Positions 28,224 through 39,983 are shown, numbered from the stretch's first letter. The stretch is DNA of 52,243 nucleotides from an uncultured Pseudomonadota bacterium (GCA_913052275.1 CAJXDX010000001.1:1-52243), one strand, 5' to 3'. Notes: generated by a model from the letters alone, not told the origin. Translations and numbers: made by a program.

Positions 28224-29945
28224 ATGGATTTTATAGAAAAAGCAAATTTCTGGGCTGAAAATCCTTGTTTTGACAGTGAAACTCAGGCAGAAGCCAGAAA
28301 ACTTCTAAAAGATCAAAACAGAGATTTATGTAAAGATTCTTTCGGCAGTATTCTGGAATTTGGTACAGGCGGACTTCGTGGAATTATGGGTGTGGGAACA
28401 AATCGTGTAAATCGCTACACAATACAAACTGCTACAGAAGGAGTGGCACGGATAATCAAGAAAAACAAGATTGGATCTGCAGCAAGAGAAGTGATAATTG
28501 GATATGATACCAGGCACCGTTCATTTGAATTTGCAAAAGTGGCATGTGAAGTTTTGGCCGGGCATGGAATTCCTGTGTATTTGTTCTCAGAAGCTTCACC
28601 AACACCGCTCGTCTCATGCGAGCTATTGCGGAGAAATGCTGTTGCCGGAATTATCATTACAGCCAGCCATAATCCTCCCGAGTACAACGGCTATAAGGTT
28701 TACTGGAAAAACGGCGGACAGATTGTACCTCCGTTAGACGGTCAGATAATTAATCAAATCCGGAATATTACAAGAATTGACGAAATCCCGGTAATCCCTT
28801 TTGAAAAAGCATTGGAGCAAAGGAACATTGAGTGGATAAATAAAGAGGCTGATGAGTATTATCTGAATACTGTCAGTAATTTAAGTTTAGGAAACTGTGA
28901 AAATAATAAGAAGTTAGGAGTAGTTTTTACTCCACTGCACGGAACAGGCGGACGTTTGGTACCAGAACTGCTTCGGCGACATTGCTTTGAGAAAGTGAAA
29001 GTTGTTGAAAAACAAATGGTCCCAGATGGAGAATTCCCTACAGTAGCATCTCCAAATCCGGAAGATATTGATGCCTTCAATATGGCTGTATCTCAAGCAT
29101 CGGACCAGGATGAGCTGATTTTGGCAAATGATCCTGATGCAGACCGCTTAGGTGTGATGATACGGGACTCAGAGAAAAAATGGCATTGGTTAACAGGCAA
29201 TCAAATTGGAGTATTAATTCTGGATTTCATCCTTTCGAATTTAAATCAGCAAAACCTTCTTCCGGGAAATGGTGTAATTTTTACTACTGTGGTCACTTCC
29301 CCTCTAGTATCAAAAATAGCTGGGGAATATGGTTTGAAAGTAGTTGAGGTATTAACAGGATTTAAATGGATTAGACAGGCGGCATTAAAGTATGAAAAAG
29401 ATCATGACTTCAAGTTTGTTTTTGGAATGGAAGAAAGCCACGGATATTTAATGGGTAACCATTCAGGCGATAAAGACGGGATTTGGGCATCTCTGGTCTT
29501 TGCTGAATTGGTGGCATCACATAAGGCAAACAACCTGACACCACTTGACAGGCTTAATCAGATTTACCTGCATCATGGGACTTATCTTGATGTACTTAAG
29601 ACTCGCACTTTCTCAGGGGCTGGAGGAATTGAGAAAATTCAGCAGCTTATGAAAATATTACGCGACTCACCTCCTGAAACTGTAGCAGGAAATTCTGTAG
29701 TTCAAATTACAGATTTTTTGCACAATACAATCACTTACACGGATAAGACATCTCCACCTAAGATTGGTCCCGGATTACCTCCCTCCAATGTTATTTCTAT
29801 TGAACTGGATGACAGGACCAGAATAATTGCTCGGCCATCTGGTACTGAGCCTAAAATAAAATATTATTTTAATCTGTGCGGAGAGAATTCTTTAATATTA
29901 GAGAAGAAACTTGATGCTATTCAGCAAGAATTTCTCAGAGATTAA
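28224..29945 (+). CDS. phosphoglucomutase/phosphomannomutase-family phosphosugar mutase (PgcA-like)
   Basis: 573 aa. Phosphoserine loop TASHNPPEYNGYK, metal loop DPDADR, sugar loop GMEESHG, phosphate loop RPSGTEPKIK. Confidence 0.85.
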   Translation: MDFIEKANFWAENPCFDSETQAEARKLLKDQNRDLCKDSFGSILEFGTGGLRGIMGVGTNRVNRYTIQTATEGVARIIKKNKIGSAAREVIIGYDTRHRSFEFAKVACEVLAGHGIPVYLFSEASPTPLVSCELLRRNAVAGIIITASHNPPEYNGYKVYWKNGGQIVPPLDGQIINQIRNITRIDEIPVIPFEKALEQRNIEWINKEADEYYLNTVSNLSLGNCENNKKLGVVFTPLHGTGGRLVPELLRRHCFEKVKVVEKQMVPDGEFPTVASPNPEDIDAFNMAVSQASDQDELILANDPDADRLGVMIRDSEKKWHWLTGNQIGVLILDFILSNLNQQNLLPGNGVIFTTVVTSPLVSKIAGEYGLKVVEVLTGFKWIRQAALKYEKDHDFKFVFGMEESHGYLMGNHSGDKDGIWASLVFAELVASHKANNLTPLDRLNQIYLHHGTYLDVLKTRTFSGAGGIEKIQQLMKILRDSPPETVAGNSVVQITDFLHNTITYTDKTSPPKIGPGLPPSNVISIELDDRTRIIARPSGTEPKIKYYFNLCGENSLILEKKLDAIQQEFLRD

Positions 29946-31585
29946 TGAGCAGTAATTTTTTAAATAAATTTAAAAAGTATGTTTCAGTTTTGCTGACGCT
30001 TTTTCTGGCCTTACCATTGATGGGGCAAAGCCTGTTGGTGGAGAGGGCCGAATCTACAGTTGTTATTAACAGAGACAACCTGGTAAGAGCAAAAGCTGAT
30101 GCACTAAAGGACGCTAAGGGGCAGGTTGTTATGCAGGCTGTTGCCAGGTATTTGGATTATAACAGCATGGTTTCTCTGAAACCACTTCTGAAAAAACATT
30201 TTTTCGAAAATCCGGACGATTTTATTGAATCAATTCGAGTAATAAGTGAAGGTAATACAGAGGATCTGAGTGAGTTCACGATAAACATTGAAACGCGGAT
30301 ATTTCAATCTCGAATAATATCAGCTTTCAGGAAATTAGGACTTCCTCCACTAGATGAACGCGTTCCATTCAGGGATTATTATTTGATTTATAATGCTGAG
30401 AATGAATTTCGTCAAACAGAATTTTTAACTAAGTTTTTGGAGCAACTGCACGCTCGTTTAAAACCCTATCGTATACGCACAAAAGATATCCTTGTTAATG
30501 AAAAATTTCTTCCAGTGAAAGCAGGCATGCAGGCTAGGCTTAATCTGCTAAAAAGCAATCATGACGAGCAAACTGACAAAAATTCATTTCCATTACTTGA
30601 ACTAAAGTCCAGCAAAATTGCTGATGGAAATGATCCGCAACAACATAATCTGAAGACAGAGATAATCTTCTGGTCTCCGGAAAATAAACTTACTGATAGC
30701 CCAATAATTATAGCCAGTGCAACAGCCTTAATGCCCTATTCTTCCAAACAAATTGATAGTATCATTCCACAATTGCTTGACAGATTAATGCTCAACTGGA
30801 CTCCTGTTATTAAAAAGGCCTTAATTTTTAATGAAGGAAGAGGAATAAAAGTGAAAATCAAATTCATAGGTTTATATGGTCCAGTTGAAGAGCAGCTGTT
30901 AGTTAAGACTTTGTTTCATAACAACCCTCGCTGGAAAAACCTGCGTCTGGATACGATTTCCAGTAATTTTGTTTCTTATAGGTCCCTTTATTTAGGAAAT
31001 AAAGATAAAATGCTTAAGGAATTTATTCTACCTCCTGATTCACAATTTCAAATTTCCGAATTAAAATGGGAAGACAATTACCTTGTGGTAAACGTTACAT
31101 GGCATGAATTGATTGCTTCACTTGAACCATATTTTACTTTGGATGAGGGTAATGATATTGATGAGGAAACTGAAGAAAATAATTTGCCCATTCCAGAATT
31201 TCAAGTTCCATTAAGTCCTTTCAAACAAACCTACAGACTGCCGTTGACGAGTACAGTTTATGATAATATCAGACATCGCGGTGACAGCACATTGTTCATG
31301 ATAAAAGCAGATAAAGATAATGAATCATATGAAGAAAAAAATTTGATCAAAATAACCTGGAATCGTCTTGGTCCTACTCATCTGCAGCCAAAACTGACTA
31401 TATATGATCACAATCGTAAACGAGTGAAGGGGTATCTGCTGAAAAGAAAAAAACATTTTTCTTTTCAATATATATTACCTGAAGGGAAAGATGCCTTTTA
31501 TTTGAGAATTTCTGATGAGATAGGTTTTCTTGAAGGTGTTGCAGGCAGTTACCAGTCTTTCCGTTATATTTTAACAGTGAATTAA
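29945..31585 (+). CDS. secreted protein of unknown function (LPP20/FlgT_N-like N-terminus, PPC-like C-terminal beta domain)
   Basis: 546 aa. The start overlaps the mutase stop (TAATG). Signal peptide VSVLLTLFLALPLMGQS. N-terminal RAKADALKDAKGQVVMQAVARYL. The last roughly 110 aa show a pre-peptidase-C-terminal-like pattern (GDSTLFMIKA...KLTIYDHN...AFYLRISD...YILTV). Domain calls are by eye only. Confidence 0.5.
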   Translation: MSSNFLNKFKKYVSVLLTLFLALPLMGQSLLVERAESTVVINRDNLVRAKADALKDAKGQVVMQAVARYLDYNSMVSLKPLLKKHFFENPDDFIESIRVISEGNTEDLSEFTINIETRIFQSRIISAFRKLGLPPLDERVPFRDYYLIYNAENEFRQTEFLTKFLEQLHARLKPYRIRTKDILVNEKFLPVKAGMQARLNLLKSNHDEQTDKNSFPLLELKSSKIADGNDPQQHNLKTEIIFWSPENKLTDSPIIIASATALMPYSSKQIDSIIPQLLDRLMLNWTPVIKKALIFNEGRGIKVKIKFIGLYGPVEEQLLVKTLFHNNPRWKNLRLDTISSNFVSYRSLYLGNKDKMLKEFILPPDSQFQISELKWEDNYLVVNVTWHELIASLEPYFTLDEGNDIDEETEENNLPIPEFQVPLSPFKQTYRLPLTSTVYDNIRHRGDSTLFMIKADKDNESYEEKNLIKITWNRLGPTHLQPKLTIYDHNRKRVKGYLLKRKKHFSFQYILPEGKDAFYLRISDEIGFLEGVAGSYQSFRYILTVN

Positions 31586-32604
31586 GTTGTTTGGGTCTTA
31601 TGGGCAGTCTCAATTTTTTGTCTGGGCATCTGCCTGAATTTGGTTTTGCTTATGTTGAACCTGATTAATACATCTCCTATTGTCACCTCATCACCATCCT
31701 GCAGAAATCGCTGATCAATCCTCCTGCCGTTTACAGAAGTTGTTTCATGAATGTGCAGATTTTGAATTTTCCAGGTTTCACCAACCTTGTATATTTTTGC
31801 GTGACGAGAAGCAACTTCATTGCTTTCAATAACAATATCATTGGAATTAGATGTGCCCATGGTGTTCAGGTTACGAATTAAAGGGATTTTCTGCTGACTT
31901 CCGAGGAATGTAAGGATTGGGGTTCCTTTCTGAACAGGTCCTTTAAGTTTAGCGCTTGCCGCAGGTAAGTCTAAGCTCCCGTCAACATTGCGTTGCATAT
32001 TGTCAGATGAAAGATCAGGGTTTCGGTAAAGCAGGACCATTTCCCCAACATCCAATATGTCATCATTACACAGTAGAATTCGATGGGAACGCCTTCGATT
32101 GATCAGCAGGGCGTTTTTATAGTTCTTGTCCTCCATCAGAAATGAATTTTGGTGAGGAGTCAGAGTAACTCTGTTTAAATTTGCAGATAAACGATACTTT
32201 TTCCCAGTATTAATCTGGGAAAGCAATTCAAGAGTTTGAACTTCGGGCTTAAGAGGGATGAACATACCCTGTTCACCAATATTTAATAATTGAAAACCAG
32301 GACTTGATGGTATCCTGACCTTTGGTTTTTGCAGCAGCCACAGAACAAATACAAGCAAAACTGTACCTGCAAATACCAGAAGGGACTCGGAAATTGTCAG
32401 AGAAGTTTCCTGACTTATTTTGAGGAAAAAATTATCTTGAAAGAATAAATCAAGTATCGCAGAGTGCGATACGTCTTGTTTCAAACCGTAACTCTGATCG
32501 ACTTGATTAGCCGCCAGCAGGTTATTAACGTTTAGTAAACTGATAAATTCCAGGTATACACTAAGCAGGCATACCCGCAATAATCGACCAATGTGATAGA
32601 ACAT
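31582..32604 (-). CDS. membrane-anchored protein with C-terminal FHA domain (plus a second, degenerate FHA-like region)
   Basis: 340 aa. TM segment LVFAGTVLLVFVLWLL. C-terminal FHA pattern NDIVIESNEVASRHAKIY...TSVNGRRI...LQDGDEVTIGDVLIRF. Middle region ALLINRRRSHRILLCNDDILDVGEMVLLY. The start overlaps the upstream gene's stop by 1 nt. Confidence 0.7.
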   Translation of the reverse strand: MFYHIGRLLRVCLLSVYLEFISLLNVNNLLAANQVDQSYGLKQDVSHSAILDLFFQDNFFLKISQETSLTISESLLVFAGTVLLVFVLWLLQKPKVRIPSSPGFQLLNIGEQGMFIPLKPEVQTLELLSQINTGKKYRLSANLNRVTLTPHQNSFLMEDKNYKNALLINRRRSHRILLCNDDILDVGEMVLLYRNPDLSSDNMQRNVDGSLDLPAASAKLKGPVQKGTPILTFLGSQQKIPLIRNLNTMGTSNSNDIVIESNEVASRHAKIYKVGETWKIQNLHIHETTSVNGRRIDQRFLQDGDEVTIGDVLIRFNISKTKFRQMPRQKIETAHKTQTT

Positions 32605-33479
32605 TAAATTTCATAGTACTGCAACAGCGCTGTACCAATTTTAATCACATCTCCTTTTTTCATGGATTGTTGATCGATCAAACGATAGTTAACCAGAACA
32701 TCTCCTCCTGTGTCTGCACTCTCAATATAATTTTGATTCCCTTTCTTGAAAATATGTGCATGTGTATCACAAACTTCTGCATAACCACGTAATATGAGAT
32801 TATTCTGTGAACCGTAACCCAGTGTAAATCTGTTTTGATCAAGAAGAAAAATTTGTCCTTCCTGCTTACCTGATAAAACTCTTATGGCAAAGGAAGTAAC
32901 TCTATTTTCAGCAATTCCAATAATTAAAAAGATGCTGAAACCGGCAAGGAGCAAACCTGCTAGGTGTTCTGTACCGGTTAAATGATACTGCAGCAATAGT
33001 TCAAAAATTCCACCTCCGATTACTCCACCAATACCCCCGCTTATAATTCTTGGTCCTGAAAATCCAGATGCGGAGCAAAACAATTCTGAGGTGCCCGTAA
33101 TTGATAATCCTAAAAGTGTCCAACTTGTTATACGACTGATCGAAGGTGAAATTTGTCCTGCTGTCAAAAAATTACCAATACCAAAACAAATCAGTCCGAA
33201 AATCGCACCTAGAAAAGCTCCTATAAACATTTTGAACAAAACACCCATCAAATCATGATGGTTCAATATTGAAGCTCTTGCCTGTAAAACCAGGCCCAGT
33301 CCAAGTCCAATTAAAGCACCTTCATAGTTAAATTCATTGATCCAGTTAGAATTTAATTCTGGAAATACTTTTGTGGAAAGAGCATCAAATATGTTAAATC
33401 CGCTTTGCAAAAGTGACCATCCAAGGACTCCTCCCAGAAGTCCAAGTAAAGAAGTATGCAATAGACGAATAGATTTCAC
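32604..33479 (-). CDS. polytopic glycine-rich membrane protein with C-terminal FHA-like domain
   Basis: 291 aa. The first roughly 190 aa consist of Gly-rich hydrophobic segments (LLGLLGGVLGW, GALIGLGLGLVL, FIGAFLGAIFGLICFGIG, GGIGGVIGGGIFELL, LLLAGFSIFLIIGIA). The C-terminus is FHA-like (NNLILRGYAEVCDTHAHIF...VLVNYRLI...KKGDVIKIGTALLQY). Confidence 0.65.
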   Translation of the reverse strand: MKSIRLLHTSLLGLLGGVLGWSLLQSGFNIFDALSTKVFPELNSNWINEFNYEGALIGLGLGLVLQARASILNHHDLMGVLFKMFIGAFLGAIFGLICFGIGNFLTAGQISPSISRITSWTLLGLSITGTSELFCSASGFSGPRIISGGIGGVIGGGIFELLLQYHLTGTEHLAGLLLAGFSIFLIIGIAENRVTSFAIRVLSGKQEGQIFLLDQNRFTLGYGSQNNLILRGYAEVCDTHAHIFKKGNQNYIESADTGGDVLVNYRLIDQQSMKKGDVIKIGTALLQYYEI

Positions 33480-33701
33480 AAAAATTTAAATGATATAAAA
33501 TTTCCTTGGTAATTTAGTAAAATTAATGAACCAGGAAATATTCTTTAAAGAAACTTAGGGAATTATGTCAGAAGCCGACTAGCGATGTATGAAAATCGGA
33601 ACTTGTGGATATGTATATTGTACTCACAGTTTCCTTTAAGCTCTCAGCTTTTTGACTCTAAAGCCAAGCATAATGGGAAAGCTTTATAACCACAAGTTTT
33701 T

Positions 33702-35423
33702 TTATTGTCGAGGCCTGCTTGATCCTCGTCTTCGAAGAAAAGTAGGAATGTCTAAATTTTGAAAAAATGCTGGATTATCAGTTTGATTTGCCCATTCCGG
33801 GATAAGGGGGCTGGTTTCAACTTCACTGGCCTCCGTTTCGCTATCTTTTTCAGAAAGAAGGTCTGGGTAGGAAAGTGAATTTGCACCAGGAATAGTCTTA
33901 CCATTGAGATCGGCTGATTCCAAAGCAGAATCATGAATTGAATAAGTTTCTGCATCAATTAAATTAGTGGACGTCATGTCCAGAGGCAAATCCTCAAATG
34001 TTGAATTATTCTCTAAATTGGAATTCGAATCTTCATGGTCAATATTATCATCCAAAGAGGTTTCAATTTCGGAGGAATCAGAGTTTTCCATATTTTGCTG
34101 ATTCATTTGAGTAATGGTGTTTTCAGATGATTCAGACTTCATTTCACTTGCTTCTTCAGCATCAATCTCCTCTTTTTCGGCTTGATCGTCAGATAATTGA
34201 CTGGAAACGCCTTCATTATCAGAAAGAATAAATTCCCTGTTTTCTCCAGGTTGGATAATTTCATCAGAATCTGTGCTTTCTGTTTCATCTGGTTCATGAA
34301 TATTACCCTCATCTTCAGTATTTTGTGAAGTATAATCATAGTTGTCTACAACCAGATTAGGATCGGTTACAACTTCTGATTTATCTTTTGTTTCAGCAAG
34401 TGCATCAAATGGCATGGCAGGAATACTAGCAGTAGATTTCTTCTCAGCTGCCTCATCATTTTCATCAAATCCGGTTGCGATTACAGTGATCATCATTTGA
34501 TCTTCAAAATCCGGATTAATAGCTGCACCCCAGATTATTTCCGCATCTTTGTGACCGTGTTCTTTGATGAATGTAGAAGCTTCATCAACTTCCTGCATAC
34601 CCATTGAAACTCCTCCAACAACATTGATCAAAATTCCGCGTGCACCGTCAATTCTATTGTCGTTTAACAGTGGGCTGTGCAGAGCTTGTTCTGCCGCATG
34701 TCTTGCTCTGTTTTCACCTGAGGCAAGTCCAGTCCCCATCACTGCTTTGCCTTTATTTGCCATTACGGTTCTAACATCCGCAAAGTCTAAATTTACCAGT
34801 CCGTCTCTGGTAATTAAGTCAGAGATACCTTGAACCCCCTGACGCAGTACATCATCTGCATATCCAAATGCTTCAGTCATAGGGGTTCGTCTATTGATGA
34901 TACTGAACAAGTTTTCATTTGGTACAACTATTAATGTATCAACCCGGTCTCTCAATTCGCTTACCCCTCCACTCGCGACTTTACGCCGTCTTTTTGCCTC
35001 AAAGTTAAAAGGCAGGGTTACAACACCTACCGTAAGTGCTTTCATGTCTTGGGCAACCTGAGCCACCACAGGTGTTCCTCCAGTGCCTGTTCCTCCGCCC
35101 ATACCTGCAGCAAGAAAAACCATATCAGCTCCTTGAAGGGAATCCCTGATTTCATCAATGCTTTCAAGGGCGGCGTTACGTCCTATTTCCGGTTTGGCTC
35201 CGGCGCCCAGGCCGCGTGAACACTGGCTGCCTATCTGAAGTTTCTGAGGTGCTAAAGATTTTCTTAAATCCTGCAAATCAGTGTTTGCCGCAATGAATTC
35301 CACACCTTGAACTCCTGATTGAATCATCCGATTGACGGCATTTCCACCACCACCGCCAACACCAACAACCTTGATGCTTGGCGTATCATCGCGTATAGGC
35401 TGGATATCAGAAAAATTTAGCAT
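33702..35423 (-). CDS. ftsZ: cell division GTPase FtsZ with an unusually long acidic C-terminal linker
   Basis: 573 aa. [15 protein letters not shown], the tubulin signature [23 protein letters not shown]. The core ends near residue 320, followed by an acidic linker of about 235 residues. The conserved C-terminal peptide is retained (DIPTFLRRR). Confidence 0.95.
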
Positions 35424-35479: not shown

Positions 35480-36721
35480 CTAAAAGAAATTTTGCATCCA
35501 GTCTTTCATTCTTCTGGACACTTTATGAAACAGATTTGTGTCGTCTCCAGCAAAATTCAGTTTTCCTTGATTGCTTGTTATACCATAACGTACAAGTCCT
35601 ACACTTGTTGCATATTTAGGTGAATATATCATTTCACGCAAACCAGTAATATTTTCAGGAAATCCCACACGTACTGGTAAATTTAAAACTTGTGAAGCAA
35701 GCTGGTCTGCTCCGGGCATAATACATGTTCCTCCAGTAATAACTACTCCTGATGCCATCAAAGTATGAAAATGAGTTTTTTCAATTTCATGAGCAATCAA
35801 TTCAAATATTTCCCTGAATCGATCCTCAATGATGCTTGCAAGCACTCGTTTTTTCATAGTACGGTTATTACGCCCCCCAACACTTGGTACTTCAATCATT
35901 TCATCTTCCTTAACCATGCTGGTCATGGCCACTCCGAAATTGTGCTTTATTTCTTCTGCTTCATGAAGTGGCGCGCCCAGGCCAATTGCAATATCATGAG
36001 TTAAATGATTACCACCCAAAGCTAAAACTGCAGTATGCACAATACTGCCTTCCGAATAAATTGTTACATCTGTGGTGCCTCCACCTATGTCAACCAGTAC
36101 CACCCCCACTTCCTGCTCATCCGGACTTAGTACAGCCTGACTTGAAGACAAAGGCTCCAAAACTATGTCTTCAACATCAAGTCCGGACTGGTTGCAGCAT
36201 TTAATTATATTTTGCGCGGAGGTTACTGAACCGGTCACAATATGTACATTCACCTCCAAACGTGCCGCTGCCATGCCAAGCGGATTTTGTACTCCATCCT
36301 GGTCGTCAACAATGAATTCTTGAGGAAGAATGTGTAATATTTCTCTGTCATTCGGAATCAGGACCTGAGCAGCGTCTATTACCCTGCGAATGTCTTCATC
36401 AGTTACAATTCGGTTATGATAAACTGTAACCATTCCTCTGCTGTTTTGCCCCCTGATATGATGGCCTGCGATTCCCGCATAGACGGAACGTATCTGTGTT
36501 CCACACATTAACTCACATTCTTCAACCGCTTTCTTTATCGCTTTAACTGTTTTTTCAATGTTGACTACAACACCTTTTCGCAATCCTTCTGATTTTGCAG
36601 TTCCAACTCCAACCACATTCAGTGCTTCAATATCATCTCCTTCAACAGCAATTGCACAGATTTTTGTGGTGCCAATATCAAGCCCAACAATCAGATTATT
36701 GCTTTTAGTTTGCGATGGCAT
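35480..36721 (-). CDS. ftsA: cell division protein FtsA
   Basis: 413 aa. Actin-fold phosphate loops VGLDIGTTKICAI and VDIGGGTTDV, then VITGGTC. Lies 56 bp upstream of ftsZ. Confidence 0.9.
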   Translation of the reverse strand: MPSQTKSNNLIVGLDIGTTKICAIAVEGDDIEALNVVGVGTAKSEGLRKGVVVNIEKTVKAIKKAVEECELMCGTQIRSVYAGIAGHHIRGQNSRGMVTVYHNRIVTDEDIRRVIDAAQVLIPNDREILHILPQEFIVDDQDGVQNPLGMAAARLEVNVHIVTGSVTSAQNIIKCCNQSGLDVEDIVLEPLSSSQAVLSPDEQEVGVVLVDIGGGTTDVTIYSEGSIVHTAVLALGGNHLTHDIAIGLGAPLHEAEEIKHNFGVAMTSMVKEDEMIEVPSVGGRNNRTMKKRVLASIIEDRFREIFELIAHEIEKTHFHTLMASGVVITGGTCIMPGADQLASQVLNLPVRVGFPENITGLREMIYSPKYATSVGLVRYGITSNQGKLNFAGDDTNLFHKVSRRMKDWMQNFF

Positions 36722-36939: not shown

Positions 36940-37272
36940 TTATCTGGAAAAAGAACAATTTTGGGATTTAATTCTATATTCATTTGCAATTGGACAGGGC
37001 GCATCTTGCAATCTATAATTCCCGCAAAAATATCCTGCATCTTTCAAGTCAGTTCTAATTTCTTCCAATTCTGCAGTTTTCCCATCATTATTAAGGGGGT
37101 AAATTTTACCCAACAAAACCATAAAACGTTTTGTATTTCTGGAACTTACAGCACGACAGACCCTCTGTAATTCAAGACGTTCATCCGTTGGATATACGTA
37201 TCTTCGCTGCTGGCTGCATCCCCCCGATGACAGGATTAACAGGGAGGTAAAAGCCATCAACAGTATTTTCAT
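36940..37272 (-). CDS. small Cys-containing probable lipoprotein
   Basis: The ORF runs 36940..37302. The likely start is the ATG at 37272 (MKILLMAFTSLLILSSGGC-SQ). The mature part has four further Cys residues. No family recognised. Confidence 0.45.
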   Translation of the reverse strand: MKILLMAFTSLLILSSGGCSQQRRYVYPTDERLELQRVCRAVSSRNTKRFMVLLGKIYPLNNDGKTAELEEIRTDLKDAGYFCGNYRLQDAPCPIANEYRIKSQNCSFSR

Positions 37273-37362
37273 TGAAATAGTATATACCCATTCAATTAAC
37301 AATGGTAGGACTAAATGAAAAAATAGTAAAAAAAGTTCAGGTGGGCAAGAAAAGTAATTATT

Positions 37363-38751
37363 TCAATTAAATAACTGCCTTACTTTGTTGAGGTGCTGAG
37401 AGGAACATACGGCAACCACCCTGTTATGAGGTTGAATTTCAGTTGAACCTACTGCCACTTTCCAGACTCCGTCCTGTTCGACACCTCCGATCAAAATATT
37501 ATGCTGGCGAAAATTTTTCGCTAATTTGTTTAAAGGTTTGCCTGCAATTTCTGAGCCCGGTGCAGCAAATAGTTCTATCACTTCAGCATCAACTCCATGA
37601 AGATGTGCCACTGATAAAAGTTCATTGCGACGTACAAATTTTAGTATTTCATTTGCAGCTGAAATTTTTGCGTTAAGTGCAATGTCCAGCCCGATTGTGG
37701 ATGCTAAAACAAGGTAATCTTCCTTGTTTACCAGAGCAATCGTTTTTCCATATCCTCCTTGTGGGTCTCTATTATTTCTGTTCATCAAGTGTTTAGCCAG
37801 CAGACAACTGACAATATTAGTTTCGTTATCTCCTGTTGTGGCAATGAAAGATTCTGTAGTATCCAGACCTGCCATAACGAGTATATTTGCGTCTGTTCCG
37901 TCCCCGTGGATTACTTGTGTGTTTTTTAAGTCAGAGGCAAGCTCCTCAGCACGTTCAGGATTATTTTCAATCAGAATAATATCCACTTCTTTTTCCAACA
38001 GCTGTGCAACTCTCCTTCCTACTAAACCCCCACCAAGAATCATCAGACATTCAATTTTTTTATGCTCTATTTTCATCATATCCATCAATGGCATCATATC
38101 CTCCTTACGCGACATGATGAATACCTGGTCAAATGGACGAATTTGTTCTTCAGCTTGAGGAATTATTGTAGAAATTCCACGTGCGATAGCCACTACCCTG
38201 AAAAAAAAATCAGTGTGAGTTTCAGAAAGCTCTTTTGGAGTTTTGTTTAAAAGTGGGGAGTATTCATTAATTCTCATAGCAAGTACAAGCATATTACCCT
38301 CACCCACAGCTGTGAGGTCATTGCATGAAGCTCTTTTAACCAATCGGTATATTTCCTGTGCAACCAGTTCCTCTGGATGAACCATCAAATCGATCTTCAA
38401 CTCATCCGGAGAGAAAATGCTGTCATCCGTAAAATCAAGGGAACGTGACCGGACAATTTTTCGATCGATACCAAATTTATCCGCGATCAGTGAAGACAAC
38501 ATGTTTGTGGAATCATTGTTTGTAGCAGCAATCATAAGTCCCATATCTTCCGCATTTGCCTCATGCCAGCTTGACAGCTGCATTGCATTTCCACATATCA
38601 GGCGGGCATCCAATGACTCTGAGGCATGTTCCAGTAATTCAGAATCAGATTCAATAACAGTAATTGGATAACCCTCATGAACCAAACGCTGCGCCAGGTG
38701 CATTCCCACTCCACCAATACCTAGGATAAGCGTATTTTCGTCTTTGGGCAT
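37363..38751 (-). CDS. trkA: Trk potassium-uptake system NAD-binding subunit
   Basis: About 462 aa. Two Rossmann/RCK_N units (ILGIGGVGMHLAQRL and MILGGGLVGRRVAQLL), each followed by an RCK_C-like region. The ATG at 38751 lies 2 nt after the upstream stop, and the alternative TTG at 38757 gives a TTGA overlap. No trkH in the window. Confidence 0.85.
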   Translation of the reverse strand: MPKDENTLILGIGGVGMHLAQRLVHEGYPITVIESDSELLEHASESLDARLICGNAMQLSSWHEANAEDMGLMIAATNNDSTNMLSSLIADKFGIDRKIVRSRSLDFTDDSIFSPDELKIDLMVHPEELVAQEIYRLVKRASCNDLTAVGEGNMLVLAMRINEYSPLLNKTPKELSETHTDFFFRVVAIARGISTIIPQAEEQIRPFDQVFIMSRKEDMMPLMDMMKIEHKKIECLMILGGGLVGRRVAQLLEKEVDIILIENNPERAEELASDLKNTQVIHGDGTDANILVMAGLDTTESFIATTGDNETNIVSCLLAKHLMNRNNRDPQGGYGKTIALVNKEDYLVLASTIGLDIALNAKISAANEILKFVRRNELLSVAHLHGVDAEVIELFAAPGSEIAGKPLNKLAKNFRQHNILIGGVEQDGVWKVAVGSTEIQPHNRVVAVCSSQHLNKVRQLFN

Positions 38752-38753
38752 AC

Positions 38754-39983
38754 TCAAATAGTTAATTCATATTGTTGGACACGTGATTTATTATGCAGGG
38801 GATTTTTTGTGGAAAGGTCAACTTCGTAAAGTTCATCTGATTGTGTAACTGAATTAATTCCATAAATATCTTCCGGAAGCTGAGCTTCTTCCAGACAATG
38901 TCTGATCGCATTAGCAATCCATTTTTCAATTTTCAAAATTATAATTTTTTTTCTAAGTCGACCCTGAACATCACGGTTAAGTACACCGGGAATCGAGTTG
39001 CTGGTAATGAATTGATTCAGGTAAGGTGAATTCAGGTTCTCCCGTGCTTCCTGAGAGATTGTTGTGTGTGTGCTGTAGAAGAAAATATTTTCAGGCCGAC
39101 ATCGTTTTGATTCTGCTATTGCACTGATATTTGCCGCAATTGTACCTCCTGTGCGTACCATATCATCGAGAATGAAAATATCACGATCTTTCAGCAGTTC
39201 CACATCTTCACTGATGTTAACTGTTACGTCCCGCTGGCCGCTCCGAGTTTTTTTGAATGTAACCAATACTGAATTATGAAGACCACTAAACTCTCTCACA
39301 CGGTTCACAAATTCTACTGCTCCTTCATCGGGTGCTACAAACCCTACATGTTCGCCGTAGTTCCAGAGCCGCACAAGACCTGAACGGAGAATGTAGTTTG
39401 CAATCAGCGGAGAAATGTCAAGATTCAACAACGGTGGAATATTGCGTGTATTTCCTTCAGGATAGACATTTTGATATATTTTACTCATCACATCAGGTTT
39501 ATGGTTATGAACAGTCATCACGCAATCTACTCCTGATGTTTTTAACAGCTGTGCGTACATTTCCGCAGAACACGGCTGTCCTACAAATTTTTCTCGTGAG
39601 GCAAAATCAGTAACTTGCGGATGATCGAGAGTTCTTGGACCGCGGTCCTGAGCAGAGTAAAATAAATCAGGCTCTACTAAAGCAACAAATTCTGCACCGT
39701 TTTCCTTGGCTGCAGAAGCAATTAAATAATTGCGCATAGCCAGCTCGTTGCGAGAATAGTATGCAGAGTGAGAAGATACAATGTATACAGATTTGCCTTC
39801 CAGTCCATAACCAAGTGTTTCTTCTGTAACGTGATCCTGCAAAAATCTTGGACAAAACTCATTGTTGATAAATGTTTTAAGGGCAATTATATCTGAAATG
39901 TCATTTTCCTGGGAATGCGCATAACCTACGCCAAGTGCAAAAGGGGCGTCACTAACGTTTGATACAATGATGTGCTTGTTCAC
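38754..39983 (-). CDS. divergent, insertion-bearing ribose-phosphate pyrophosphokinase (Prs)-family protein
   Basis: 409 aa versus about 315 aa for classical Prs. It can be aligned to E. coli Prs by eye: YSAQDRG (YARQDRR), VMTVHNH (VLTVDLH), FVAPDEGAV (VVSPDIGGV), ILDDMVRTGGTI (LVDDMIDTGGTL), YSTHTT (YATHPI). Extra segments occur in the N-terminal half and at the C-terminus. Confidence 0.6.
   Translation of the reverse strand: MNKHIIVSNVSDAPFALGVGYAHSQENDISDIIALKTFINNEFCPRFLQDHVTEETLGYGLEGKSVYIVSSHSAYYSRNELAMRNYLIASAAKENGAEFVALVEPDLFYSAQDRGPRTLDHPQVTDFASREKFVGQPCSAEMYAQLLKTSGVDCVMTVHNHKPDVMSKIYQNVYPEGNTRNIPPLLNLDISPLIANYILRSGLVRLWNYGEHVGFVAPDEGAVEFVNRVREFSGLHNSVLVTFKKTRSGQRDVTVNISEDVELLKDRDIFILDDMVRTGGTIAANISAIAESKRCRPENIFFYSTHTTISQEARENLNSPYLNQFITSNSIPGVLNRDVQGRLRKKIIILKIEKWIANAIRHCLEEAQLPEDIYGINSVTQSDELYEVDLSTKNPLHNKSRVQQYELTI

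What the first reader, a model, noticed from the sequence alone, without database searches (positions are those of the whole stretch)
31582..33479. Translationally coupled pair of membrane FHA-domain proteins directly downstream of ftsA-ftsZ
Seen: two minus-strand ORFs start 222 bp after the ftsZ stop and are joined by a TAATG 1-nt overlap at 32604. The first (291 aa) is a Gly-zipper-rich polytopic membrane protein (e.g. GGIGGVIGGGIFELL) ending in an FHA-like domain. The second (340 aa) has a TM anchor, a degenerate FHA-like middle region and a clearer C-terminal FHA domain (SRHAKIY...VNGRRI...GDEVTIG). In my by-eye alignment, the Gly-Arg dyad that normally contacts phosphothreonine reads GY in one and GT in the other. 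The first protein also has CDTHA in place of SRxHA, so phospho-recognition may be altered. No Hanks kinase or PP2C phosphatase is in the window. Established: FHA domains read pThr, and in mycobacteria a small TM-FHA protein (FipA/FhaB) links Ser/Thr kinase signalling to FtsZ/FtsQ. Inference: this pair may be a membrane-tethered FHA module acting on the divisome, possibly on the Ser/Thr/Asp/Glu-rich FtsZ linker next door. I know of no characterised equivalent with this architecture in diderm bacteria.
Basis: partly seen in the sequence, partly recalled or inferred. Interest (0 to 1): 0.6.

Follow-up and report, generated by a model that had tools for sequence, protein, structure and literature searches.

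The report
SAR324 membrane FHA pair after ftsZ
Two overlapping genes just after ftsA-ftsZ encode an uncharacterised pair of inner-membrane proteins with FHA-fold domains; the pair follows ftsZ across almost the whole SAR324 phylum, so it is a strong untested candidate for a lineage-specific cell-division component, and in this kinase-less genus it has lost its phosphothreonine-reading residues.

Summary
P1 (32604-33479, 291 aa) and P2 (31582-32604, 340 aa) overlap by one base (TAATG) and start 222 nt after ftsZ.

- **P1** is six TM helices plus a C-terminal FHA sandwich (AF2 pLDDT 88; GarA/OdhI TM-score about 0.9).
- **P2** has a hydrophobic N-terminus, one TM helix, a degenerate FHA-like middle domain with an invariant LEDKNYKNALLINRRR motif, and a C-terminal FHA.
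- **Synteny:** the window is a SAR324 MAG. ftsA-ftsZ-P1-P2 is kept in 74 of 76 resolvable genomes. The P2 family was found only in SAR324, always unannotated.
- **pThr pocket:** P1's FHA and P2's middle domain lack the pThr-binding Arg/Ser/Asn phylum-wide. P2's C-terminal FHA is canonical in basal, kinase-bearing clades but degenerate here (GT; Ala for Ser). This genus has essentially no Hanks kinase or PP2C.
- **Selection:** all three domains remain under purifying selection (dN/dS 0.07-0.18).
- **Origin:** a paralogous kinase / P1b / vWA-TM-FHA operon, and a degenerate vWA ectodomain in long P2 orthologues, point to a kinase-linked signalling module.

Best reading is a divisome-associated membrane complex that is phospho-independent in this genus. 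Function is inferred from synteny alone.

The parts
35480..36721 (-). ftsA, first gene of the conserved ftsA-ftsZ-P1-P2 run
   Evidence: ORF. Orthologues are 49-98% identical and lie directly upstream of ftsZ in every locus with enough flank.
33702..35423 (-). ftsZ (573 aa): core aa 1-323, hyper-acidic linker of about 243 aa (net charge -56), C-terminal peptide DIPTFLRRR
   Evidence: The tubulin signature GGGTGTG is readable in the translation. dN/dS is 0.015 for the core and 0.44 for the linker.
33480..33701 (-). 222-nt ftsZ-P1 spacer with sequence blocks conserved within the genus
   Evidence: alignment shows blocks AACTTGTGGTT, CACAAGTT and GTCGGCTTCTGACAT. There is no consensus promoter or terminator and no Rfam match. 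In some basal genomes the gap is only 0-3 nt.
32895..33479 (-). P1 membrane domain, aa 1-195: six TM helices with GxxxGxxxG glycine zippers
   Evidence: AF2 helices 2-37, 49-72, 77-107, 112-134, 141-164 and 170-194; pLDDT 88, pTM 0.81. The conserved columns are almost all Gly (G13, G54, G58, G62, G87, G91, G95, G152) plus W120. No Pfam or NCBIfam family matches.
32604..32894 (-). P1 C-terminal FHA domain, aa 196-291 plus stop; pThr-binding Arg, Ser and Asn absent across the phylum
   Evidence: Pfam. Foldseek to GarA/OdhI gives TM-score about 0.9, rmsd 1.1-1.3 A. The alignment shows GY/GK/GT/GS for GR, Cys or variable residues for Ser, Gly or Cys for Asn, and His kept. dN/dS is 0.10-0.18.
32497..32604 (-). 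P2 N-terminal hydrophobic helix (aa 1-36) and short loop: remnant of a signal/anchor plus a deleted ectodomain
   Evidence: Selection is relaxed (dN/dS 0.35-0.74). Orthologues of 550-600 aa carry a roughly 280-aa degenerate vWA domain here.
32329..32394 (-). P2 transmembrane helix, aa 71-92
   Evidence: Hydropathy. AF2 helix 71-92.
32017..32313 (-). P2 juxtamembrane beta domain, aa 98-196: degenerate FHA-like fold with invariant motif LEDKNYKNALLINRRRxxR..L..D.LD.GE
   Evidence: AF2 predicts beta strands at pLDDT about 80-88. hhalign gives 87% against the P2 FHA and 77% over 87 columns against the P1 FHA. Invariant columns are N142, E158, N161, N169, R170-172, R175, D185 and G187. It has the lowest dN/dS of the pair, 0.07-0.09.
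31645..31929 (-). P2 C-terminal FHA domain, aa 226-320: pThr pocket degenerate here (GT for GR, Ala at the Ser position), canonical in basal orthologues
   Evidence: Pfam FHA E 5e-13. Foldseek TM-score 0.86-0.88. Residue table across 51 orthologues. dN/dS 0.09-0.11.

Best explanation
P1 and P2 are the two subunits of a SAR324-specific inner-membrane complex made together with FtsA and FtsZ, and it most likely acts at the division site. P1 contributes a glycine-zipper six-helix membrane bundle and a cytoplasmic FHA-fold domain that cannot bind phosphothreonine. P2 is a membrane-anchored protein (one clear TM helix plus a hydrophobic N-terminal helix). Next to the membrane it carries a pseudo-FHA domain with an invariant basic NRRR patch, and it ends in a second FHA domain. 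Together they put three FHA-fold interaction surfaces at the inner face of the membrane. I propose these bind a divisome protein (FtsZ, FtsA or a later component). The complex would then tether or tune the Z ring as a lineage-specific accessory, in the way ZipA, SepF or FzlC do elsewhere. The pair descends from a kinase-linked transmembrane signalling module of the form 6TM-FHA plus vWA-TM-FHA. In basal SAR324 clades P2's last FHA probably still reads a pThr mark written by Hanks kinases. In the window's streamlined pelagic genus, the kinases, the vWA ectodomain and the pThr-binding Arg and Ser are all gone, so here the module works constitutively and without phosphorylation. Shown here: gene structure, folds, residue states, synteny, paralogy, selection, and absence of kinases. 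Inferred: that the two proteins form a complex, that they act on the divisome, and which protein they bind.
For: Synteny: ftsZ, P1 and P2 lie on the same strand within about 3 kb in 74 of 83 P1-bearing genomes, covering 40 of 43 genera. Seven cases are unresolved at contig ends. In 46 of 47 loci with upstream flank, ftsZ lies directly upstream of P1; ftsA precedes it wherever the flank reaches. The ftsZ-P1 gap is 0-3 nt in some basal genomes, and P1/P2 overlap by 1 or 4 nt in most. Coupling of the two proteins: they always co-occur, and in one lineage they form a single ORF called independently as a 738-aa protein (G002). Folds. pThr-pocket states. Kinase distribution: none in the own genome, none in 17 of 18 genomes of the genus, and 12 of 35 high-quality genomes lack one while 34 of 35 keep P1. 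PP2C_2 occurs in 1 of 18 genomes of the genus. Purifying selection inside the kinase-less genus: dN/dS 0.07-0.18 for the three FHA-fold domains, against 0.35-0.74 for P2's N-terminal stub. Paralogy: an operon of kinase (647 aa), P1b and vWA-TM-FHA exists in basal clades. The long-P2 ectodomain is homologous to the P2b vWA domain (hhalign 98-99%, E 4e-14 and 5e-18). Published parallel: membrane vWA proteins and Ser/Thr kinases recur in operons with FtsZ-like GTPases (Makarova & Koonin 2010, PMC2875224).
Against: No experiment or interaction prediction links either protein to FtsZ or FtsA; the link rests on gene order alone. Two genomes (G010, G059) carry the pair away from ftsA-ftsZ. Three small basal genomes (G064-G066) lack the pair but divide with FtsZ. 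The single fusion could be an assembly indel, because the two frames normally overlap. The link between Arg loss and kinase loss rests on essentially one clade-level event out of about four changes on the tree. P1-like 6TM-FHA proteins in other phyla are not next to ftsZ. No AF2 multimer prediction was available.
Confidence: 0.5

Rival explanations
1. The pair is an envelope or peptidoglycan/membrane-homeostasis regulator that merely rides in the ftsAZ operon. It would act like mycobacterial FhaA, which acts on MviN/MurJ. It would control a transporter, a flippase or lipid-linked synthesis through P1's six-helix domain, and would not touch the Z ring.
For: P1 has a polytopic membrane domain of unknown function. 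FHA adaptors of Actinobacteria regulate wall synthesis (NCBIfam gives weak hits to FhaB and OdhI). P1-like proteins in other phyla sit with another FHA protein and not with ftsZ. The ancestral ectodomain (vWA) looks outward.
Against: Phylum-wide adjacency to ftsZ is much tighter than simple hitch-hiking predicts (74 of 76, with gaps down to 0-3 nt). P1's membrane domain has no conserved polar or charged residues, only Gly and Trp, which fits a scaffold better than a transporter. No peptidoglycan-synthesis genes adjoin the cluster in this window.
Confidence: 0.25
2. The module is still phosphorylation-dependent in this genus. It would use an atypical kinase outside the Hanks family, or it would read pSer or clustered acidic residues such as the expanded acidic FtsZ linker with a re-shaped pocket.
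For: P2 keeps Gly, His and a Ser shifted by one position. The FtsZ linker became about 250 aa and hyper-acidic in exactly this genus. The MAG is only 83% complete.
Against: The phosphate-contacting Arg is replaced by Thr, Ser or Lys, and the canonical Ser by Ala, throughout the genus. Losing the Arg should weaken binding of any anionic ligand rather than strengthen it. Seventeen of 18 genus genomes lack Pkinase. The one exception is a 7.3-Mb bin with 5% contamination. PP2C_2 is absent in 17 of 18.
Confidence: 0.12
3. The FHA domains belong to a secretion-system scaffold of the T3SS YscD/PrgH type or the T6SS TagH/Fha type.
For: The best Pfam hit of P1 is Yop-YscD_cpl. TIGR03354 (TagH) gives a weak hit to P2.
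Against: The TagH score is 26 against a cut-off of 120. The YscD periplasmic ring domains are absent. No secretion genes adjoin the pair in any of about 70 loci examined. The context is always ftsA-ftsZ.
Confidence: 0.02
4. In this kinase-less genus the pair is a decaying relic without function.
For: The vWA ectodomain is lost, the pThr pocket is lost, and P2's N-terminus is evolving nearly neutrally.
Against: dN/dS is 0.07-0.18 for all three cytoplasmic domains across the genus. Reading frames are intact in most genus genomes with complete loci (one, G035, splits P2 into two ORFs at an in-frame TGA). The overlapping stop/start is kept.
Confidence: 0.03

Closest known systems
Mycobacterial FhaB/FipA (Rv0019c) and FhaA (Rv0020c)
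   Same: These are small membrane-associated FHA proteins tied to growth and division. NCBIfam FhaB_Rv0019c is among the best named hits for both proteins.
   Different: Scores of 28 and 35 bits fall far below the 125-bit equivalog cut-off. FhaB is a roughly 155-aa protein with one TM helix and one canonical FHA, encoded with pstP-rodA-pbpA-pknA-pknB and not with ftsZ. Here there are two proteins, six TM helices, three FHA-fold domains and no kinase. The paper claiming a FipA-FtsZ interaction is flagged retracted (PMC2797604).
pThr-independent FHA domains of T3SS inner-membrane ring proteins (YscD/PrgH/PscD; Pfam Yop-YscD_cpl)
   Same: Both are cytoplasmic FHA folds on an inner-membrane protein that lack the pThr-binding residues and serve as a structural interaction surface. 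The Pfam model matches above its cut-off. Foldseek hits 4a0e, 4d9v and 6uid.
   Different: There is no secretion-system context and there are no periplasmic ring-building domains. The membrane part is a six-helix bundle.
vWA / Ser-Thr kinase / FtsZ-like (FtsZl1, Tubulin_2) operons predicted by Makarova & Koonin 2010 (PMC2875224)
   Same: A signal-peptide vWA membrane protein, often with protein kinases, is encoded beside an FtsZ-superfamily GTPase. Long P2 orthologues carry a degenerate vWA ectodomain, and the paralogous P2b has an intact vWA next to a kinase.
   Different: The GTPase here is the canonical FtsZ with FtsA, not FtsZl1. The window's own P2 has lost the vWA domain. The 2010 paper does not mention FHA domains or a 6TM-FHA partner.
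Lineage-specific FtsZ membrane tethers and regulators (ZipA, SepF, FzlC, EzrA)
   Same: This is a functional analogy only. P2, like ZipA, has an N-terminal membrane anchor, a flexible segment and cytoplasmic globular domains, and is encoded next to division genes.
   Different: No sequence or fold similarity was detected. Binding to FtsZ is untested.
6TM-FHA-Zn-ribbon-FHA proteins of Armatimonadota and other uncharacterised 6TM-FHA proteins
   Same: They share P1's glycine-rich six-helix module followed by an FHA domain. The profile search found 403 clusters at E<1e-30.
   Different: They carry a second, fully canonical FHA domain. One examined locus is not beside ftsZ but beside another FHA protein. 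All are annotated only as 'FHA domain-containing protein'.

Membership tests
FHA domain (Pfam PF00498 / Yop-YscD_cpl PF16697, same clan) | Beta-sandwich FHA fold detectable by HMM and by structure | tested here: met
   P1 scores 39 bits against 33.2 (PF16697). P2 scores 49.6 bits against 20.7 (PF00498). Foldseek TM-score is 0.86-0.93 to GarA/OdhI/FhaA.
FHA domain, phosphothreonine-reading subtype | Conserved Gly-Arg, Ser-x-x-His and Asn that contact the pThr peptide | tested here: not met
   P1 has GY, Cys for Ser and Gly for Asn, and lacks these residues phylum-wide. The window's P2 has GT, Ala at the Ser position and no Asn. Basal P2 orthologues do meet the feature (IGRS, VSxxHS, and in some NGT).
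FHA domain: P2 middle region aa 98-196 | Recognisable FHA fold | tested here: inconclusive
   hhalign gives 87% (42 columns) against the P2 FHA and 77% (87 columns) against the P1 FHA. AF2 predicts a beta domain. There is no Pfam hit for this region in the window protein, and no separate fold search was possible.
FhaB/FipA (NCBIfam NF049868, equivalog) | Score over the curated cut-off of 125 bits | tested here: not met
   28.0 bits for P1 and 34.6 bits for P2.
FhaB/FipA (NCBIfam NF049868, equivalog) | Encoded with pknA/pknB, pstP, rodA and pbpA | tested here: not met
   The own genome has no Pkinase and no PP2C_2. The neighbours are ftsA, ftsZ and a convergent secreted protein.
T6SS TagH/Fha (TIGR03354) | Score over the curated cut-off of 120.25 bits, plus T6SS context | tested here: not met
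   26 bits. No T6SS genes are present in about 70 loci.
T3SS YscD/PrgH inner-membrane ring protein | One TM helix followed by periplasmic ring-building domains, inside a T3SS cluster | tested here: not met
   P1 ends at the FHA domain and has six TM helices. P2 has no periplasmic ring domains. No T3SS genes are adjacent. A genome-wide T3SS search was not run.
vWA/FtsZl1 operons (Makarova & Koonin 2010) | FtsZl1 (Tubulin_2) GTPase as the core gene | tested here: not met
   The adjacent GTPase is the canonical FtsZ. It is 43-99% identical to the main FtsZ copy of 86 of 88 SAR324 genomes, follows ftsA, and carries the C-terminal FtsA-binding peptide.
vWA/FtsZl1 operons (Makarova & Koonin 2010) | Membrane vWA-domain protein in the operon | tested here: inconclusive
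   It is absent from the window's P2. It is present as a degenerate, MIDAS-less vWA in 550-600-aa orthologues (hhalign 98.2% to P2b vWA). Pfam VWA_2 hits only the paralogue P2b.
Known FtsZ tethers (ZipA, SepF, EzrA, FzlC) | Sequence or fold homology to the family | tested here: not met
   There are no such Pfam or NCBIfam hits, and only FHA chains appear among the Foldseek matches.

The most novel reading that the evidence does not exclude
SAR324 bacteria recruited a whole transmembrane Ser/Thr-kinase signalling module (6TM-FHA plus vWA-TM-FHA) into the ftsAZ operon as a new Z-ring membrane anchor or regulator. The juxtamembrane pseudo-FHA domain with its invariant NRRR patch would bind FtsZ or FtsA directly. 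Basal lineages would gate this binding by phosphothreonine and a periplasmic vWA sensor. The abundant pelagic genus stripped away sensor, kinase and pThr pocket, leaving a constitutive FHA-fold tether. That would be a natural series showing a phospho-reader turning into a plain structural divisome subunit. It would also be an experimentally tractable model for the never-tested vWA/kinase/FtsZ-like systems.
Probability: 0.3. Interest if true: 0.75.

Novelty: new variant of a known kind. Interest (0 to 1): 0.55.

Why it matters
SAR324 is among the most abundant bacterial groups of the dark ocean, and most of its genomes here are MAGs. Nothing is known about how it divides. A two-protein membrane module that follows ftsZ across almost the whole phylum is the best available lead to lineage-specific divisome parts. 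It also offers a clean evolutionary series. The same FHA domain has a canonical phosphothreonine pocket where Hanks kinases exist and a decayed pocket where they do not, yet it stays under strong selection. That makes the question 'what do FHA folds do without phosphate?' directly testable with paired orthologues. Finally, it links canonical FtsZ to the architecture (membrane vWA protein plus kinase) that was predicted in 2010 to work with FtsZ-like GTPases and has never been tested.

Tried and rejected
- **Taxonomic range of P2.** The search for related loci with the 17-sequence P2 alignment failed because no stretch was conserved enough. A 6-sequence alignment worked. That search is motif-limited, so distant P2 relatives outside SAR324 could be missed. 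The HMM-based word search also gave only SAR324-type names.
- **Signals in the spacer.** The promoter/terminator scan found nothing in the ftsZ-P1 spacer. Rfam found nothing. RNAalifold on the spacer gave only weak, mostly invariant pairs.
- **Secretion-system reading.** The T3SS/T6SS interpretation was rejected on scores and context.
- **Acidic FtsZ linker as the conserved target.** Rejected, because the linker is short and only mildly acidic in basal clades that keep the pair.
- **Arg loss versus kinase loss as a statistical correlation.** The raw Fisher test gives p = 2e-5 (25/5 against 4/16). The FtsA tree shows only about 4 changes, with one main clade-level loss, so I treat the association as suggestive only.
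- **The roughly 770-aa representatives as P1-P2 fusions.** Only the G002 protein contains the P2 middle domain. The others are 6TM proteins with two FHA domains of another kind.
- **Organism behind P0107.** It could not be named. Relatives with names are Armatimonadota.
- **P1's membrane bundle.** No fold match was found among the top 50 Foldseek hits, which were all FHA chains.

Full report
**1. Observation**

The window carries, on the minus strand, ftsA (35480-36721), ftsZ (33702-35423), a 222-nt spacer, and two ORFs. The first ORF is 291 aa (P1, 32604-33479, GTG start). The second is 340 aa (P2, 31582-32604). The P1 stop and the P2 start share one base (TAATG).

Pfam places an FHA-clan domain at the C-terminus of each protein. 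P1 aa 200-287 matches Yop-YscD_cpl (E 1e-9). P2 aa 248-310 matches FHA (E 5e-13). Both score above the curated cut-offs. NCBIfam gives only sub-threshold hits to FhaB/FipA, OdhI and TagH.

AlphaFold2 models built on 49 and 51 orthologues gave the following.
- **P1:** pLDDT 88, pTM 0.81. Six TM helices followed by a beta sandwich.
- **P2:** pLDDT 72. An N-terminal helix, a TM helix at 71-92, a beta domain at 103-194, a disordered linker, and a beta sandwich at 229-318.

Foldseek matched both C-terminal sandwiches to GarA, OdhI, FhaA, EmbR and YscD FHA domains (TM-score 0.86-0.93, rmsd 1.1-2.1 A).

**2. Organism and conservation**

Named homologues are 'SAR324 cluster bacterium', 'Candidatus Lambdaproteobacteria' or 'Deltaproteobacteria' MAGs. 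The genome is a 1.95-Mb, 83%-complete MAG.

Across 88 species-level genomes of the phylum:
- P1 is present in 83 and P2 in 82.
- The three basal small genomes G064-G066 lack both; G024 and G033, incomplete genomes of the own genus, also gave no hit; G023 lacks only a P2 hit, its contig ending inside P1.
- Comparing coordinates with ftsZ: in 74 genomes ftsZ, P1 and P2 lie in that order on one strand within about 3 kb.
- In 7 genomes a contig end prevents a call.
- In 2 genomes (G010, G059) the pair is truly elsewhere.

ORF-level inspection of 20 and then 52 loci gave the same picture. ftsA-ftsZ-P1-P2 appears wherever the flank reaches ftsA, and ftsZ-P1-P2 in 46 of 47 loci with upstream flank. 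The ftsZ-P1 gap is as small as 0-3 nt in basal lineages. P1/P2 overlap by 1 or 4 nt in most.

In one lineage (G002) P1 and P2 form a single reading frame, which NCBI called independently as a 738-aa protein. Because the two frames normally overlap, a single assembly indel could also produce this fusion. I count it as weak support for physical coupling.

The P2 family was found only in SAR324-type genomes. The evidence is a motif scan of 185,579 species and a profile search of 5.8 billion proteins. It is annotated nowhere beyond 'FHA domain-containing' or 'hypothetical'. No paper in the library connects SAR324, FtsZ and FHA.

**3. Anatomy of the domains**

*P1 membrane domain.* The conserved positions are almost entirely glycines in GxxxGxxxG spacing (G54/G58/G62 and G87/G91/G95), plus W120. 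There are no conserved charged residues. This fits a tightly packed scaffold better than a transporter. That last point is inference.

*P1 FHA.* I aligned it to the GarA, Rv1747 and EmbR sequences returned by the PDB search. It keeps only the structural Gly and His. The phosphate-binding Arg is Tyr, Lys, Thr or Ser. The Ser is Cys or variable. The Asn is Gly or Cys. This holds in every SAR324 lineage and in the paralogue P1b.

*P2 middle domain (aa 98-196).* It aligns to both FHA profiles: hhalign 87% and 77%, the latter over 87 columns. It is the most conserved part of the pair. Its motif LEDKNYKNALLINRRRxxR..L..D.LD.GE has invariant N161, N169, R170-172 and R175.

*P2 C-terminal FHA.* Its pocket varies with lineage.
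- Basal clades have IGRS...V-S-x-x-H-S, and some also have N-G-T. This is a canonical pThr pocket.
- The window's genus has G-T/S/K and V-A-(S/L)-R-H-A.

**4. Kinases and phosphatases**

- The own genome has no Pkinase and no PP2C_2. P2 is its only PF00498 match.
- Across the phylum, 48 of 88 genomes have Hanks kinases.
- Seventeen of 18 genomes of the own genus have none. The exception is a 7.3-Mb bin with 5% contamination.
- The neighbouring genera g8, g11 and g12, and nearly all of g10, also have none or only marginal hits.
- Among high-quality genomes, 12 of 35 lack a kinase while 34 of 35 keep P1.
- PP2C_2 is found in 15 of 88 genomes and in 1 of 18 in the genus.

The pThr Arg of P2 is kept in 25 of 30 kinase-bearing genomes and lost in 16 of 20 kinase-less ones. 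On an FtsA tree this needs only about four changes. The main change sits at the base of one kinase-less clade. The association is therefore suggestive, not statistically independent.

**5. Selection**

I compared the window with four genus relatives.

| Region | dN/dS |
|---|---|
| P1 FHA | 0.10-0.18 |
| P2 middle domain | 0.07-0.09 |
| P2 C-terminal FHA | 0.09-0.11 |
| P2 N-terminal 66 residues | 0.20-0.74 (0.35-0.74 in three of four comparisons) |
| FtsZ linker | 0.38-0.58 |
| FtsZ core | 0.015 |

dS approaches saturation in the more distant pairs. The closest informative pair (L066) gives the same ranking. The genes are therefore functional here despite the lost pocket.

**6. Origin**

Basal SAR324 (family f7, G086 and G042) carry a second P1-like gene, P1b (296 aa). 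In most of these genomes it lies directly after a 647-aa membrane Hanks kinase; in G042 no kinase was found beside it. It is followed by a protein with a signal peptide, a VWA_2 domain with an intact DxSxS motif, one TM helix and one FHA domain.

The 550-600-aa P2 orthologues of other f1 genera have a roughly 280-aa ectodomain before the TM helix. That ectodomain is homologous to this vWA domain: hhalign 98.2%, E 4e-14 over 265 columns, and 99% for the full length. It has lost the MIDAS motif.

So ftsZ-P1-P2 and kinase-P1b-P2b are paralogous two-gene modules. The window's genus, and independently f7, deleted the ectodomain of the ftsZ-linked copy.

P1-like six-helix-plus-FHA proteins are widespread: 403 clusters at E<1e-30. 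They include a 6TM-FHA-Zn-ribbon-FHA form in Armatimonadota. One such locus was examined. It lies beside another FHA protein and not beside ftsZ.

A lead from earlier notes of this scan pointed to Makarova & Koonin 2010. I read that paper. It predicts operons that join membrane vWA proteins and Ser/Thr kinases to FtsZ-like (FtsZl1) GTPases. The SAR324 arrangement is a parallel built on canonical FtsZ.

**7. What it most likely does**

The tightest inference is that P1 and P2 work together and with the ftsAZ gene products. The evidence is constant co-occurrence, overlapping genes, one fusion, and phylum-wide adjacency with gaps down to zero.

I propose an inner-membrane complex that presents three FHA-fold surfaces to the cytoplasm at the division site and binds a divisome protein. 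In basal lineages it would be gated by pThr. In this genus it would be constitutive. I put this at about 0.5.

The main rival (0.25) is an envelope or wall-synthesis regulator that only shares the operon. Continued phospho-dependence through an unknown kinase or an acidic ligand is possible but disfavoured by the loss of the Arg (0.12). Secretion-system and relic readings are essentially excluded.

The roughly 250-aa linker with net charge -48 to -65 exists only in this genus. Basal clades with the same pair have linkers of 83-143 aa and net charge -5 to -19.

**8. Comparison and novelty**

The fold family is known. pThr-blind FHA domains on membrane proteins are known (YscD/PrgH). FHA adaptors in actinobacterial growth and division are known. 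None of these families' membership criteria is met beyond the fold itself (see the membership table).

The following features appear undescribed:
- the two-protein architecture;
- the NRRR pseudo-FHA domain;
- its restriction to SAR324;
- its fixed place after ftsZ;
- the decay of the pocket in parallel with kinase loss.

I class it as a new variant of a known kind, with moderate-to-good interest. Its function is untested.

**9. Limits**

- All genomes except possibly one are MAGs.
- Absence of a gene in a single MAG is weak evidence. The kinase absence rests on many genomes of the clade.
- No multimer prediction and no transcript data could be obtained.
- The identity of the binding partner is inference.

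Noticed in passing
own genome contig C4:13046-14017 (outside the window); L056-L058 (G008, G007, G009): Nearly all SAR324 genomes of families f1 and f2 carry a second, short FtsZ paralogue. It is about 323-340 aa and about 45% identical to the main copy. In the own-genome copy there is no linker or C-terminal peptide. In three f2 genomes it lies convergent, 1-2 kb downstream of P2, so the FHA pair sits between two FtsZ genes.
   Followed up: partly
window 33759-34463 (FtsZ linker): The hyper-acidic FtsZ linker (243-266 aa, net charge -48 to -65) is confined to the window's genus. Other SAR324 have 83-330 aa with much lower net charge. Its dN/dS of 0.38-0.58 shows weak constraint on sequence.
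   Followed up: partly
window 33480-33701: The ftsZ-P1 spacer has blocks conserved across the genus. They include an inverted repeat AACTTGTGG...CCACAAGTT about 85 nt apart and a small hairpin GTCGGCTTCTGAC followed by a T-rich stretch. This may be a processing or attenuation signal. There was no Rfam hit and little covariation.
   Followed up: partly
L051-L055 (e.g. L054:4306-10155), L064: A paralogous operon occurs in basal SAR324. It encodes a 180-aa protein of unknown function, a 647-aa membrane Hanks kinase, P1b (6TM-FHA, 296 aa) and a signal-peptide vWA-TM-FHA protein (about 477 aa). In G042 (L064) the same P1b/vWA-FHA pair sits beside two large proteins of 825 and 863 aa that were not annotated here; no kinase was found beside it.
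   Followed up: partly
L045:6500-8812 (G002): P1 and P2 are joined in one 738-770-aa reading frame (6TM - FHA - TM - TM - pseudo-FHA - FHA). This is the only such case among the top 150 representatives. It could be a true fusion or an assembly indel.
   Followed up: partly
whole genome G000 and its genus: The whole pelagic genus, together with the neighbouring genera g8 and g11, lacks Hanks-type kinases and almost all PP2C_2 phosphatases. Larger-genome SAR324 have up to 25 kinases, many of them 1,500-2,400-aa multidomain proteins.
   Followed up: yes
L118/L119; proteins P0107, P0379, P0381, P0396, P0435: A large uncharacterised family of 6TM - FHA - Zn-ribbon (CPFCG...CAC) - canonical FHA proteins exists. 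Named members come from Armatimonadota. In one locus the gene is preceded by another 439-aa FHA protein.
   Followed up: partly
window 36940-38757 and 28224-31585: trkA and a 110-126-aa lipoprotein-like gene precede ftsA throughout family f1. The convergent 546-aa secreted protein and the phosphosugar mutase downstream of P2 are conserved only in part of f1. They are therefore not part of the module. The P2 stop and the 546-aa gene's stop share TTAA at 31582-31585.
   Followed up: partly
literature: The paper usually cited for a phosphorylation-dependent FipA-FtsZ interaction in mycobacteria (PLoS One 2010, PMC2797604) is marked RETRACTED in the library.
   Followed up: no
L120-L122 (G059, G010): In two genomes the P1-P2 pair is not next to ftsA-ftsZ, although both regions have ample flank. 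One of them has congeners (G058, G060) with the normal linkage, so a recent rearrangement or a binning problem is possible.
   Followed up: partly
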